Of a stretch of DNA of 64,000 nucleotides, positions 31,939 through 47,640 are shown piece by piece (the first letter of the stretch is position 1; each line of letters starts with the position of its first letter). The notes beneath the pieces were generated by a model. It was not told the origin of the DNA. It saw nothing but the letters and a program-made list of their open reading frames with translations, and did no database searches. This DNA comes from the human T2T-CHM13v2.0 reference genome, Homo sapiens, in NCBI RefSeq assembly GCF_009914755.1, contig NC_060940.1. One strand, written 5' to 3'. The translations under genes and the position numbers were made by a program.

Positions 31939-32714
31939 CAACCAATGAGAGACAGGAGCTGGTGGGTCAATACCCTAATTTTTGGTGCCATTTGCTATCA
32001 CTCACTGCCCTCATCTTGCCTGCCTCACCCTCCCCAGCATCCAAAGCACAAGTCAGAAAGCAGTTGAATCTCAGGGTGAGAACAAAGTCTGACACATCCA
32101 TTCATGATGAACCCAGAGGGCAAAACACTGTCCACCGTGGTTTAAAAGAGGCAGTCCTCTTCCCTTCCAGATGGAAAGAAGAGGTGTCACTGAGCCACAG
32201 CCGGGAGAACAAGGGAGGCCCAGGTACAGCCAACGCTCTCCTGAAAATTCAAGAGGAACCTCACACAAGCCTTCAGGACGCCGTCTACAGCAAGTCATGG
32301 TTCTGCAATGCAAACAAAGTCAGGAAGAAAGAGGGAGGTTTGAAAACAATGCGGCCTTCCAGGCCCGAGTGAGAGGATGGGTCAGCCGGGCAGGAGTGAC
32401 CGTGTAAGTATCGCAGCAAAGGAGGCTGAGTGCTCCCTGCATCAAATCAATGCTCATCTGGATAATGAAAGTACACCCTCACAGGCCTCCAAGAAGGTCA
32501 CTGGCAAAACGTCCCACTGGTGGACAGACACCTGATCAGCAAGGGGCAAGAGCAGAGGCTGCTTGAAGAATCTAAAGCAAACAAACAGAAAATCCAAGAC
32601 CTGGATAAAAAGTGAGAAATACAAGAAAGGCCTGACACAATTCCAAGTTGCATTCTGAACAAGAACACCACAAACCCCTTTTCATGGCACAGGGTGTTAA
32701 AAGAGCTCTTGCCA

Positions 32715-33025
32715 GCCGGGCGCAGTGGCTCACGCCTGTAATCCCAGCACTTTGGGAGGCCGAGGCGGGCGGATCACGAGGTCAGGAGATCGAGACCATC
32801 CCGGCTAAAACGGTGAAACCCCGTCTCTACTAAAAATACAAAAAATTAGCCGGGCGTAGTGGCAGGCGCCTGTAGTCCCAGCTACTTGGGAGGCTGAGGC
32901 AGGAGAATGGCGTGAACCTGGGAGGCGGAGCTTGCAGTGAGCCGAGATCCCGCCACTGCACTCCAGCCTGGGCGACAGAGCGAGACTCCGTCTCAAAAAA
33001 AAAAACAAAAAAAAAAACAAAAAAA
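32715..33025 (+). mobile_element. AluYa5
   Basis: All five Ya5 diagnostic positions (ATCCCGG, CTAAAACGG, GCGTAGTGG, CTACTTGGG, GATCCCGCC); TSD AAAAGAGCTCTTGCCA at 32699-32714 and 33026-33041. Confidence 0.92.
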
Positions 33026-34276
33026 AAAAGAGCTCTTGCCACAGAGTCACTTGAGACACATTTCTGGGCAAATACACAAAGGAAGAGAGACTCTTCAACC
33101 AACTGTGTCCCTCCAAACAGCCCTGAGAAGTAACAGTCATCAGAGACTTCCCAGAAGATACCCTCGACCACCAGAGTTCTGGCCCTACACCCACATGGGT
33201 GAGGTCTTCCTCCCACCACCAACAGCCAACCTGTGAGGTCTTTCTCTTTTTGCTGAAGGGGCCCAGTGTAGACTGGAGGCCTCAAGACTAGTTCCTAGGG
33301 CCATCTGAGGCCTCCAGTGCAGTACCTACCTCCTATTAGATACAGCTGAGGCCCCACCAATACATACAAGAGACCCTTCTCCTCTAAAGAGCTGGGCATC
33401 AGAGGCTGCCCATGGTTTCCATGATTTCCATGATCACACCATGACAAGGGAGACCACCACCCACCAGGAGGAATTCCTAAGCCTCTTCTTCTTCCCACTT
33501 AGGGTTCTTCTTAAACCTTCTTGAAAAAAACACAATCTGTGCTTTCCCTAAATAAGGACTTCCTTTTGCCTGAGCAGGTATATGCAGACAATAATCTGAG
33601 GTTTGAGATTAAAAAAAAAATCTTTTTGACCACTGTAAAAGACTGCCACCAAACTATTTCCTCCCACCACCAATCACGAGCCAAGCCACAAAGTCCTCAT
33701 CCCTCACTGGGGAGCTCAACCTCAACTGGGGACTGCGCCTGCTGGGGAAGCCCCTCCACTTTGTCCCAGGGCTCACCTGGGGTCTCTCCTGACCTTGCAT
33801 CTGTGCTTTGCTGCAACCTTCACTTCTGCAGGTAAGTACACAAAAGGTACCGTGTCAAAGTATCAAAGAGGAACCAACCCGGTTCCCAAAATGATGGCGA
33901 ATCCAGTGTCAGCCCAATCAACAGCTCCTCAGCCTCCCTCCCTGGTTCTCCTGAGTTAGATTCAGGAGACTGGGGTCCCATCTGTGGAGGCTGGAGGCTG
34001 GACGTGCTTCAACATTGGCTATGCTGTCTGTATACATAGCAAATGAGAGGACTCAACACTGCTAGGATAATCTGCACCACAATCCTCTGTGCAGTGTGCC
34101 TGGCTTTAAGAGAGGTATCCTTGGAGGCGTGTTTGCAATTGACTCCAAATCTGAAACCCCAGCACTGTGACCACAACACTCACAGGAAACCAGAATATCT
34201 GAAACGGTGATGACTTTCCACACTGATTTGGTCTCATCATGCTGCAACCGACATTCTAGTATCATTATTTAGAGAG

Positions 34277-44646: not shown

Positions 44647-45146
44647 AGTCTATCATTGCCTCTGAGATTTCACATGCCACCTTTATCATATACTAAATTC
44701 CCATTCGTACTTAGGTCTGTTCTGTACTTTCTATTCTATTCCATTGGTCTGTCTGTCTGTTCATGTGGTCAATGCCACACTGTTCTAATTACAGAGGCTT
44801 TATAGTTTGTTTTAACAGCCCATAGGGTGAGGCCCCCATTTTGGTCAGTTTTTCCCTGGCTATTTCAGCATGTTTATTTTCCATAGAAACTTTAGTATCA
44901 GCTTATCAACTCCATGAAACAAAGCTTATTGGTATTTTTATAGGAATGGCATTCAATTTATAAGTCAACTTGGGGGGAAAAGGGCATCTTGATGTTGAGT
45001 TATGATAGCCAAAAACAAGGGATGTCTTCCCACTCCACGTGCTTTAGTGTTTTCCAGAAGTGTTGTAAAATTTTCCCTTTATAGATTTTGCACATTTCTT
45101 ATTAAGTTTATCCCTAAGTATTTAATCATCTTTGTTGCTACTATAT
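44505..45146 (+). repeat. Left copy of a ~640-bp direct repeat (Alu right arm + old L1 fragment)
   Basis: Roughly 90% identical by eye to 47900-48544. Confidence 0.9.
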
Positions 45147-45529
45147 GTAGTAGGGTGCTGCAGGGACCACAGCCTTTGCCACTTCCCTCTGGAGGCTGCA
45201 GCTCACCCGGAAAAAGGCTAGGGACACAGGAGACCCCCACTTCAGACTCCTCTCCTGCAGCTGCTGCCCCTCAGGCCAAGGAACAGCCCTCTCTGTTGGA
45301 AGGGAGCCCCCAGAACAGAGGCCATCCAAACCTGAGGCAGAGGGGGACCATATCCTCCTCACCAATCTAAGAGGCTTCCCCAAAGACCTCACCCCCAGCT
45401 TTTGCAGACCCAGCCTAGTGCCTGGGCTTCAGCTGAGAGGCTGGGGGGATGTTTTCCTTCCTGCCCCAGAGACTGTCAACTGAATCCTCAAAATGTATCT
45501 GAAGGAATGGGAGACATTCTAAATATACT

Positions 45530-47640
45530 GTTTGACTCTGAACAAAAAGATCAAAAGTTCAGGGACATTCTTTGAGGCCATCAGAGTACAAAACAGAAAT
45601 CAGTCAAAGGAAGAGTCTGGGCTTCAACATATCAAATTAAATTCTAGTGAGGAAACTGCTTGTTAATTTGGAGCCAGTTAACAAGAGAAAACAGAGACAA
45701 TGTGAAATATAACAAAACCATATGTGAGATTTAATAACACTTTCTAAGGTAAGAAGAGCTTTAAAGAATTTAAATGCAAAGGAGACACGTGGATCTAACT
45801 TCTGTCTGGCTCGGGAAGAACATATGAGGCTTCAGAATTCCTACAGGAAAAAGAGAAACAGAGAAACCAACATGCTGCCTTTAATGACTTCATCAAATGC
45901 CATGAGCAATCTCAGAGAGTCCTCCATGTCCTTTTTTGCAAGACACAAGAAAACGCCCATCTAAAAGATCACATTACACCATGAGAAGCGCCGGCAGGCC
46001 AGTAGAGCGATGAGACACAGTTTCGGACAAGTCAGACGGCAGATGACTTCGACAGAGTCTTCGTTAACCATGATGGGGAAAAGCACAGACTACTTCCAGG
46101 CAACACAGAGGGAGGTTGTATCAGACAAGCAACATCTGGAAGAACAGTAAATCCGCTGAAAGAAGGTGACTATCCACTGCATAAGGCCAACACTCTCCTG
46201 AAAAGATCAACGTGCATCTGCACAGCCCACTCATGCAGAGCATTAGCAGAAAATCACAGCCCTTAAGCAAGGTGACTCTGGAAGAGAAAGAAATGGAAGC
46301 GAGACGCAGCCTTCCAAATGCACTTCGGAAGAGCATCCGCAAGACAGGGGCTGGGAGAGCAACTGCCATAGTGAAAAGTAACATTGACTTACTTCATGGG
46401 ACCAAGCCTCTTCTGGAACATCAATCTAAAAACCACAGAGCCTGAATGAAAGCTGTTAGCAAACGGAATCTCAAAAACCAGTTTGCTTAGCAAGGAAAAG
46501 AACAGGAAGGGAAGTGGCAAAATCTTTCCCCCAGAAGAAAATAACCAAAACTCCAAGACCTGGATTAAAAATGAGAAAAACAAGAAAGGCCTTATACGAT
46601 CCAGAGTTGCATTCTGAACAAGAACACCCATGAACTCTCCTTCATGGCATAGTATGTTAAAAGAGCTCTTGCCAGCCCGGTGCGGTGGCTCACGCCTGTA
46701 ATCCCAGCACTTTGGGAGGCCAAGGCAGGCAGATCACCTGAGGTCGGGAGTTCAAGACCAGCCTGACCAATATGGAGAAACCCTGTCTCTACTAAAAACA
46801 TAAAATTAGCCAGGTGTGGTGGCACATGCCTATAATCCCAGCTACTTGGGAGGCTGAGGCAGGAGAATCGCTTGAACTCAGGAGGCGGAGGTTGCAGTGA
46901 GCCGAGATCACGCCATTGCACTCCAGCCTGGGGCATAAGAGCAAAACTCCATATCAAAAAAAAAAAAAAAAAAAAGGAGCTCTTGCCACAGAGAAAGTAG
47001 GTGCTACCAACTTGAGACACATTTCAGGGTAAACATACAGAGGAAGGGAGAGTCTTCAATCAACTGTGTTCCTCAAAACAGCCCTGAGAAGCAACAGTCA
47101 TCAGAGACTTCCTGCAAGATACCCTCAACCACTGGAGTTTTGGCCCCACCCCCATTCCCACACCAGGTGAGGTCTTCTTCCCACCACCAACAACCAGTCA
47201 ACCCATGGGGGTCTTTCTTGCTGGAGGAGCCCAGTGTACATTAGAGGCCTCAAGAATAGTTCCTAGGGCCATCTGAGGCCTCCAGTGCAGTACGTACCTC
47301 CTATTAGATAGAGCTGAGGCCCCATCAATACATGCAAGAAATCCTTCCCCTTTGAAAAGTTGGTGTCACAGGCCGCCTGTCATTTCCATGAGTTCAATGA
47401 TCACACCAAGACAAGGGTGTCCACCCCACCAGGGAGACCACTGCCCTAACCAGAAAGACTTCCCATGTCTCCTCTTCCTCCCCTCTGTGGTTCCCTTTAG
47501 ACCCCCTCAAGATAATACAATCTATGTTTTCTCCAAGTAAGAACTACCTTTTGCCCAAGAGGGTATATGTAGACAACAATCTAAGGTTTGGAGTTTTAAA
47601 AAACTCTTGACCGCTATGTAGACTACTCCCCAAACTATTT
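45530..47640 (+). pseudogene. Decayed intronless MIA3/TANGO1-derived retrocopy, copy B (interrupted by an AluSp)
   Basis: Colinear peptides: HAAFNDFIKCHEQSQRVLHV..N..L...IT (45871-45978), [38 protein letters not shown]; many stops and frameshifts. Confidence 0.8.
46675..46972 (+). mobile_element. AluSp
   Basis: Sp diagnostics GGTCGGGAG, CCTGACCAA..TGGAGAAA, GCCATTG, AAGAGCAAAACT; TSD at 46659-46674 and 46973-46988 (1 mismatch). Confidence 0.88.

What the first reader, a model, noticed from the sequence alone, without database searches (positions are those of the whole stretch)
32699..46988. Two Alus of very different age at the same nucleotide of two paralogs, with the same TSD
Seen: copy A has an AluYa5 (32715-33025) and copy B an AluSp (46675-46972). 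Both follow GTT|AAAAGAGCTCTTGCCA, share orientation and the 16-bp TSD, and begin GCC without the first G. Known: Ya5 is a recent, largely human-lineage subfamily, Sp is tens of millions of years older, and precise parallel Alu insertion is considered rare. Inference: either (a) precise parallel insertion, implying that sequence fixes both nick positions, or (b) one ancestral AluSp was copied with its flank and then fully converted by a Ya5 template in copy A.
Basis: partly seen in the sequence, partly recalled or inferred. Interest (0 to 1): 0.75.

Follow-up and report, generated by a model that had tools for sequence, protein, structure and literature searches.

The report
Young Alu replacing old Alu in paralog
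Two old local copies of the same 1.1-kb stretch each carry an Alu repeat at exactly the same nucleotide, one very young and one old, most likely because an inherited old Alu was overwritten by a young one, a rare but already described event.

Summary
Alu A (32715-33025) and Alu B (46675-46972) lie on the + strand at the same aligned column of two homologous units (32575-33667 and 46535-47648). Both follow GTT|AAAAGAGCTCTTGCCA, start at GCC without the first G, and have a 16-nt target-site duplication (A 16 of 16, B 15 of 16). A is a very young Ya5-type copy with 21 CpG; its closest genomic relatives are 98-99% identical. B is an old S-type copy, Sp-like, with 8 CpG; its closest relatives are 89-92% identical. 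The flanks are low-copy: only A, B and a partial chr10 copy exist in the genome. They are therefore true paralogs, about 15% diverged, and not copies of an interspersed repeat.

The window cannot decide between the two readings. I favour one old insertion inherited by both copies, followed by complete replacement of A's Alu by Ya5 sequence (about 0.62). This explains the shared junction, the shared duplication length and A's interrupted tail at no extra cost. Precise parallel insertion stays alive at about 0.25, because Alu B looks younger than the flank split and A's duplication is perfect. Both mechanisms are already in print, so this is a new example of a known kind. Ape orthologues would settle it.

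The parts
32575..32698 (+). Left flank of copy A, homologous to 46535-46658
   Evidence: BLAST 83% over 141 columns including the TSD. 19 mismatches in 123 aligned bases for 32592-32714.
32699..32714 (+). 5' target-site duplication of Alu A (AAAAGAGCTCTTGCCA), preceded by GTT, which gives the L1-endonuclease-type site TT|AAAA
   Evidence: Read directly; printed.
32715..32994 (+). Alu A body, Ya5-type, starting at GCC (first G absent), 21 CpG
   Evidence: Closest genomic copies are 98-100% identical. Two differences from their majority sequence. Five Ya5-type changes relative to the window's Y-like Alus. Both monomers hit Rfam Metazoa_SRP at 49 and 54.8 bits, below gathering.
32995..33025 (+). 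A-tail of Alu A, 31 nt: A11 C A11 C A7
   Evidence: The longest pure A run is 11. A run of 13 or less is seen in 4 of 29 young reference copies and 16 of 29 old ones.
33026..33041 (+). 3' target-site duplication of Alu A, 16 of 16 identical to the 5' copy
33042..33667 (+). Right flank of copy A, homologous to 46989-47648
   Evidence: BLAST 75.8% over 699 columns including gaps. Substitution mismatch is 14-15% up to 33450 and 29% beyond.
46535..46658 (+). Left flank of copy B
46659..46674 (+). 5' target-site duplication of Alu B, identical to that of A, preceded by GTT
46675..46955 (+). Alu B body, old S-type (Sp-like), starting at GCC (first G absent), 8 CpG
   Evidence: Closest genomic copies are 89-92% identical. 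S-type state at all columns that separate the S and Y reference sets. Rfam Metazoa_SRP hits at 54.6 and 38.8 bits.
46956..46972 (+). A-tail of Alu B, 17 pure A
46973..46988 (+). 3' target-site duplication of Alu B, 15 of 16 (AAAGGAGCTCTTGCCA)
46989..47648 (+). Right flank of copy B. Its part from 47264 onward also has a 90-92% copy on chr10.

Best explanation
One old S-type (Sp-like) Alu inserted by L1-driven target-primed reverse transcription at TT|AAAA in an ancestral unit, creating the 16-nt duplication and a 5' end that lacks the first G. A local duplication then copied the unit with its Alu, giving copies A and B about 14 kb apart. Copy B kept the old element, which decayed to 8 CpG. In copy A, a few million years ago, the whole Alu body was overwritten with Ya5 sequence by non-allelic gene conversion. 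The likely route is repair of a break in the resident Alu using a Ya5 copy, or a Ya5 cDNA, as template. The 5' junction, the A-tail and both duplications were left untouched because the donor shares no homology beyond the Alu.

Shown: the anatomy, the homology of the flanks, the very different ages of the two Alus, and the low copy number of the unit.

Inferred: the order of events and the conversion itself.
For: 1. The 5' junction is identical (GCC directly after ...TTGCCA) and the duplication is 16 nt in both copies. Among young reference copies a 16-nt duplication occurs in 4 of 28, and an unambiguous loss of only the first G in 1 of 29, or up to 4 of 29 with ambiguous cases. Independent insertions would therefore need a 0.005-0.02 coincidence on top of using the same nick. 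Descent gives this for free.

2. The flanks are true low-copy paralogs. Genome searches with either flank found only A, B and a partial chr10 copy, and all 3 candidates were scored. A transposon-family insertion hotspot is not the explanation.

3. A's tail is interrupted (A11 C A11 C A7, longest run 11). A longest run of 13 or less is seen in 4 of 29 young reference copies and 16 of 29 old ones. Only 7% of very young Alu tails carry any substitution (PMC4607524, passages read).

4. The mechanism is documented:
- 98 Alu-Alu conversions, 40 of them AluS to AluY, with complete replacement in 14 of 52 reconstructed loci and 6 human-specific cases (PMC8230782, sections 1 and 3 read).
- A full AluSg to Ye5 replacement that kept the flanks and direct repeats (PMC554112, passages read).

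5. Rough odds of descent plus conversion over parallel insertion are 1.2-11 to 1. That calculation uses a recalled Ya5 copy number of about 4500 and the 1 in 153 full-conversion rate from PMC554112.
Against: 1. Clock. The central flanks differ at 57 of 495 non-CpG sites, which is 6.25% per lineage after correction. An Alu as old as the split should then carry at least about 14.6 non-CpG substitutions. I count 8-10 in Alu B against the majority of its relatives (classification by eye). P(8 or fewer) = 0.045 and P(10 or fewer) = 0.14.

2. The four 16-nt duplication copies show 1 change where descent predicts at least 4.7 (P = 0.05). Parallel insertion predicts about 3.2 (P = 0.17).

3. The conversion would have to cover every informative site from position 4 to 278, with no residue of the old element. 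Complete conversions are the minority (14 of 52).

4. Donor and acceptor would have been only about 85% alike. The optimum is quoted as 89-100%.

5. No Ya5 donor lies in the window. The nearest relative in the window is a Y-like copy at 55062-55348, 91-95% identical.

6. The locus is not among the conversion loci in the stored part of the PMC8230782 supplement. That screen did not target Ya5-annotated elements.
Confidence: 0.62

Rival explanations
1. Precise parallel insertion. The A/B duplication predates both Alus. An Sp-type Alu inserted into B tens of millions of years ago, and a Ya5 inserted independently into the homologous TT|AAAA of A a few million years ago. By chance, or because the local sequence steers second-strand cleavage and 5' joining, both events gave a 16-nt duplication and an element that lacks its first G.
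For: - The nick site is a perfect TT|AAAA. Unit A has only 2 such sites in 766 bp, and 7 of 28 reference Ya5 copies use this exact motif.
- A's duplication is perfect at 16 of 16, and its 31-nt tail length lies within the range of the young reference copies.
- Alu B looks younger than the flank split, with 8-10 non-CpG changes against at least 14.6 expected.
- The duplication copies fit this tree about 3 times better.
- Precise parallel Alu insertions occur in primates at 0.01-0.04% per lineage pair (quoted in PMC10531181, passages read). PMC8230782 itself states that homoplasy from conversion is even rarer than parallel insertion.
Against: - It needs the same second nick (16 nt in 4 of 28 reference copies) and the same loss of exactly one G (1 to 4 of 29). 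Together that is 0.005-0.02.
- There is no microhomology at the junction that would make this outcome deterministic (read directly).
- A's interrupted tail is atypical for a young insertion (4 of 29; 7% in PMC4607524).
Confidence: 0.25
2. Transfer between the paralogs, or replacement by insertion plus deletion. In the first version the old Alu entered only one copy, was copied with its duplications into the other by A/B gene conversion, and was later converted to Ya5. In the second version a Ya5 inserted at the still intact TT|AAAA of the 5' duplication next to the old Alu, and recombination between the repeated tail-plus-duplication then removed the old element.
For: - This would reconcile an Alu B younger than the flanks with shared junctions.
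- It would also fit the unusually well kept duplications. By my own direct reading, 40 of the 41 bases next to the Alus are identical, against about 85% in the flanks. No call computed this count.
- The neighbourhood has other local duplications.
Against: - It needs three events.
- By direct reading, the flanks already show 7 mismatches in the 21 bases just left of the conserved block and a 14-nt indel 5 bases to the right. A conversion tract would therefore have had almost no flanking homology.
- The insertion-plus-deletion version still needs the same second nick and the same 5' end.
Confidence: 0.1

Closest known systems
Full Alu gene conversion or replacement at locus Ye5AH181 (Salem et al. 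2005, PMC554112)
   Same: A young Y-lineage Alu occupies the place of an older S-type Alu, with the same flanks and direct repeats kept (passages read).
   Different: There the older state was seen in orthologues, in New World monkeys. Here the witness is a paralog 14 kb away in the same genome, so the ancestral state of copy A itself has not been observed.
Systematic AluS to AluY conversions in hominoids (Doronina, Reising and Schmitz 2021, PMC8230782)
   Same: The direction is old S to young Y. Complete replacements are documented (14 of 52), and some are human-specific.
   Different: That screen took AluS and AluY/Yc elements with repeat-free flanks. This locus is Ya5-type and is not in the stored part of their supplement.
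Precise parallel Alu insertions (Doronina et al. 2019, as quoted in PMC10531181 and PMC8230782)
   Same: Two elements share the same orientation and the same target-site duplication start at homologous sites.
   Different: The known cases are between species lineages and usually involve contemporaneous subfamilies. Here the two elements differ in age by tens of millions of years and also share duplication length and 5' truncation. I did not read the 2019 paper itself.

Membership tests
Alu (7SL-derived dimeric SINE inserted by L1 machinery) | Two 7SL-related monomers | tested here: met
   Rfam Metazoa_SRP hits for both monomers of A (49 and 54.8 bits) and of B (54.6 and 38.8 bits). All are below the gathering score of 70, as expected for Alu.
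Alu (7SL-derived dimeric SINE inserted by L1 machinery) | 3' A-tail, flanking target-site duplication, TT|AAAA nick site | tested here: met
   Tails of 31 nt (A) and 17 nt (B). 16-nt duplications at 16 of 16 and 15 of 16. GTT|AAAA in both.
AluYa5 (copy A) | Five diagnostic substitutions on an AluY background | tested here: met
   A differs from all three Y-like window Alus at positions 88, 95, 144, 173 and 236. 28-29 of its 29 closest genomic relatives share these states at 88, 95, 144 and 236. That there are five Ya5 diagnostics is stated in PMC4607524. Which five they are is recalled. No Dfam run was possible.
AluYa5 (copy A) | Young age: few changes from the subfamily sequence, CpGs intact | tested here: met
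   2 differences from the majority of its relatives. 21 CpG against 8 in B. Relatives are 98-100% identical.
AluSp (copy B) | S-type backbone with the Sp-specific states | tested here: inconclusive
   The S-type state is present at all columns that separate the S and Y reference sets. 27-29 of 29 relatives share B's states at columns 95, 105 and 157-159, and 28 of 29 at column 249. The assignment to Sp rather than another S subfamily rests on recalled motifs, because no curated library was available.
Complete Alu-Alu gene conversion | The same flanks, duplications and junctions as an older Alu at the homologous site | tested here: met
   The comparison is with a paralog, not an orthologue.
Complete Alu-Alu gene conversion | Older Alu present at the orthologous site in outgroup species | not testable with these tools
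   No primate genome other than the window's own assembly is held.
Complete Alu-Alu gene conversion | The Alu predates the duplication that made the paralogs | tested here: inconclusive
   8-10 non-CpG changes in Alu B against at least 14.6 expected (P = 0.045-0.14). This is a mild tension, not a rejection.
Precise parallel insertion | Same orientation, duplication start shifted by at most 1 nt | tested here: met
   The shift is 0. The criterion is as quoted in PMC10531181.
Precise parallel insertion | Empty site in the common ancestor or outgroups | not testable with these tools
   No ape or monkey assemblies are held.

The most novel reading that the evidence does not exclude
Two independent retrotransposition events, about 30 million years apart and by different Alu subfamilies, hit the homologous TT|AAAA of two paralogs. 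Both produced the same 16-nt duplication and the same 5' end lacking one G. This would mean that the local target sequence dictates not only the first nick but also the second-strand cleavage point and the 5' joining in target-primed reverse transcription.
Probability: 0.22. Interest if true: 0.6.

Novelty: new member of a known kind. Interest (0 to 1): 0.35.

Why it matters
Either way the locus is a clean natural example. If it is a conversion, it shows a complete, edge-to-edge overwrite of an 85%-similar old Alu by an active Ya5. Such an event falsifies age estimates based on divergence and can mimic a human-specific insertion in presence/absence studies. It also shows that a paralog in the same genome can serve as the witness of the ancestral state. 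If it is a parallel insertion, it would be unusually strong evidence that target sequence controls second-strand cleavage and 5' end resolution. No gene or annotated exon is touched. Alu B lies in an intron of LINC02136 and Alu A lies outside that gene, so no functional consequence is expected.

Tried and rejected
1. The flanks as copies of an interspersed repeat with an Alu hotspot: rejected. Whole-genome searches with the left flank, A's right flank and B's right flank found only A, B and a partial chr10 copy, and all candidates were scored. Six-frame translations showed nothing protein-like (by eye only).

2. The chr10 copy as a third witness: useless. It starts at window position 47264, about 280 bp 3' of the Alu site.

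3. A larger segmental duplication around A/B: only a weak extra block was found (32356-32517 with 46093-46259, score 23 against shuffles at 11.3 +/- 1.3). Nothing was found to the right.

4. A donor Ya5 nearby: none in the window. The closest genomic copies are on other chromosomes.

5. An unbiased subfamily sequence for dating. The majority sequences built from the nearest neighbours are biased toward the query at CpG sites. I therefore used only non-CpG changes, and the count of 8-10 is partly by eye.

6. Tail statistics. The automatic tail measure runs into A-rich duplications, so only the longest pure A run was used.

7. Earlier findings of this scan were not open.

8. The supplement of PMC6191304, a list of human-specific mobile elements, could not be opened. 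The presence or absence of Alu A in that list would bear on the choice.

9. The supplement of PMC8230782 was searched for my estimated hg38 position, which rests on recalled CALB2 coordinates, and gave no hit. That file was cut when stored.
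Full report
**What is there.**
- Alu A occupies 32715-33025 and Alu B occupies 46675-46972, both on the + strand.
- Each is preceded by GTT and the 16-mer AAAAGAGCTCTTGCCA (32699-32714 and 46659-46674).
- Each is followed, after the A-tail, by the same 16-mer: 33026-33041 at 16 of 16, and 46973-46988 at 15 of 16 with A to G at the fourth base.
- Each element begins GCC directly after ...TTGCCA. The base after the 3' copy is C, so the first G of the element is unambiguously absent in both.
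- GTT|AAAA is the top-strand image of the L1 endonuclease site TTTT/AA.
- Rfam's 7SL model hits both monomers of both elements below its gathering score, as Alus do.

**Are the flanks really homologous, and what are they?**
- After masking Alus, self-BLAST of the window gives 32575-32714 with 46535-46674 (83%) and 33015-33667 with 46962-47648 (75.8% including gaps).
- In a MAFFT alignment the duplications fall in the same columns.
- Mismatch is 19 of 123 on the left. On the right it is 27 of 181 and 28 of 199, rising to 62 of 211 distally. Outside the unit it is random at 59-66%.
- A weak further block (32356-32517 with 46093-46259, about 62%) scores 23 against 11.3 +/- 1.3 for 200 shuffles. 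Nothing extends to the right.
- The window's own genome proved searchable. Either flank finds only A, B and one partial copy on chr10, with all 3 candidates scored.
- The unit is therefore low-copy DNA and A/B are true local paralogs, not two members of a transposon family.
- The chr10 copy corresponds to window 47264-48887 at 92-94%. It begins about 280 bp 3' of the Alu site and so says nothing about the Alu.

**Ages and subfamilies.**
- Alu A has 21 CpG and Alu B has 8. They differ at 40 of 268 aligned bases plus 5 gap columns.
- Of 1487 first-look candidates for A, 40 were scored, and the 29 best non-self copies fetched are 98-100% identical.
- Of 2031 candidates for B, 40 were scored, and the 29 best are 89-92% identical.
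- At every column that separates the two sets of relatives (about 25 columns, positions 63-270), A has the young state. B has the S state at all but one of them, column 267.
- Against the three Y-like Alus of the window, A differs at seven positions. Five of them (88 C, 95 A, 144 A, 173 T, 236 C) are the ones I recall as the Ya5 diagnostics. That Ya5 has five diagnostics is stated in PMC4607524.
- A differs from the majority of its relatives at only 2 sites, both CpG transitions. That majority is biased toward A because the relatives were picked by similarity.
- The name Sp for B rests on recalled motifs. No Dfam or RepeatMasker was available.

**How unlikely is the shared structure under independence?** I used the 29 young relatives of A as a reference set of independent insertions.
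- A 16-nt duplication occurs in 4 of 28. One copy gave no exact duplication.
- 20 of 29 have exactly one G between the duplication and GCC, so they are full length. Another 4 have extra bases.
- 1 of 29 unambiguously lacks only the first G, and 3 more are ambiguous because the duplication ends in G.
- One copy is truncated by 8 nt.
- The joint chance of the same duplication length and the same 5' end is therefore 0.005-0.02.
- The nick itself is a favoured one. TT|AAAA is used by 7 of 28 reference copies, and unit A holds only two such sites in 766 bp.

**Evidence that cuts the other way.**
- Clock. The central flanks differ at 57 of 495 non-CpG sites, which is 6.25% per lineage after correction. 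An Alu older than the A/B split should then show at least about 14.6 non-CpG substitutions.
- Against the majority of its relatives, Alu B shows 8-10 (I classified them by eye, and indel placement near position 260 changes the count). P(8 or fewer) = 0.045 and P(10 or fewer) = 0.14.
- Duplications. The four 16-nt copies show one change in total. Descent predicts at least 4.7 (P = 0.05) and parallel insertion about 3.2 (P = 0.17), a likelihood ratio near 3 for parallel insertion.
- Tract length. A conversion would have to span every informative site, positions 4-278. Only 14 of 52 reconstructed S/Y conversions were complete (PMC8230782).

**Evidence from the tail.** A's tail is A11 C A11 C A7, and its longest pure A run is 11. 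A longest run of 13 or less occurs in 4 of 29 young and 16 of 29 old reference copies. In very young polymorphic Alus only 7% of tails have any substitution (PMC4607524). This favours an old tail, and so conversion, by about a factor of 2. The automatic tail lengths run into A-rich duplications, so I did not use them.

**Weighing.**
- For the prior of parallel insertion I used the chance that a Ya5 uses a given TT|AAAA. This takes a recalled copy number of about 4500, times 7/28, divided by about 4.6 million sites extrapolated from 95 in this window.
- For the prior of conversion I used the full-conversion rate of 1 in 153 young elements from PMC554112, applied to about 1.1 million older Alus (recalled).
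- Combining these with the ratios above gives odds of descent plus conversion over parallel insertion of 1.2 to 11.
- These numbers are rough. They show that neither reading can be dismissed.
- I put 0.62 on conversion, 0.25 on parallel insertion and about 0.1 on multi-step variants. The variants are transfer of the Alu between the paralogs, or a new insertion next to the old Alu followed by deletion.

**Comparison with what is known.** Both mechanisms are in print.
- Complete replacement of an older Alu by a young one with flanks and direct repeats retained was described for Ye5AH181 (PMC554112).
- It was found systematically for AluS to AluY, in 98 cases of which 6 are human-specific (PMC8230782).
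- Precise parallel insertions occur in primates at 0.01-0.04% per lineage pair (quoted in PMC10531181).
- This locus is not in the stored part of the PMC8230782 supplement. That screen did not target Ya5 elements, and my hg38 position rests on recalled CALB2 coordinates.
- What is particular here is that the witness of the older state is a paralog in the same genome rather than an orthologue.

**Limits.** No primate assembly other than the window's own was available, so the decisive test could not be run. The supplement with the list of human-specific mobile elements (PMC6191304) could not be opened.

**Verdict.** This is a new example of a known kind, of modest interest unless the ape orthologues show an empty site.

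Noticed in passing
26952-27225 and 28405-29013: A local duplication at 89% identity. The second copy carries a minus-strand Alu (28672-28980) with its own short duplication, and the first copy has the empty site. This is the ordinary filled/empty pattern, for contrast with A/B.
   Followed up: partly
44508-45145 and 47901-48544: Another local duplication at 90% identity. Its left edge lies inside an Alu, and only the 3' half of that Alu is present in the second copy. This suggests an Alu-mediated breakpoint.
   Followed up: partly
47264-48887; L007 (G000:C10:27933410-27936800): This stretch has a 92-94% copy on chr10 (about 27,934,910-27,936,460). It is an interchromosomal duplicate that starts abruptly inside the right flank of copy B.
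   Followed up: partly
32356-32517 and 46093-46259: Weak extra homology (about 62%) to the left of the A/B unit, offset by about 220 bp relative to the main alignment. It could be the remnant of an older, larger duplication or two copies of an ancient repeat.
   Followed up: partly
32847-32898: A sub-threshold Rfam hit to mir-1268 (70 bits against a gathering score of 83) inside the right monomer of Alu A. Weaker hits occur in other Alus of the region, as expected for an Alu-derived miRNA family.
   Followed up: no
2399-2809 and 10394-11970: Long tandem-repeat arrays within the CALB2 gene span, seen as ladders of self-matches at 75-85% identity.
   Followed up: no
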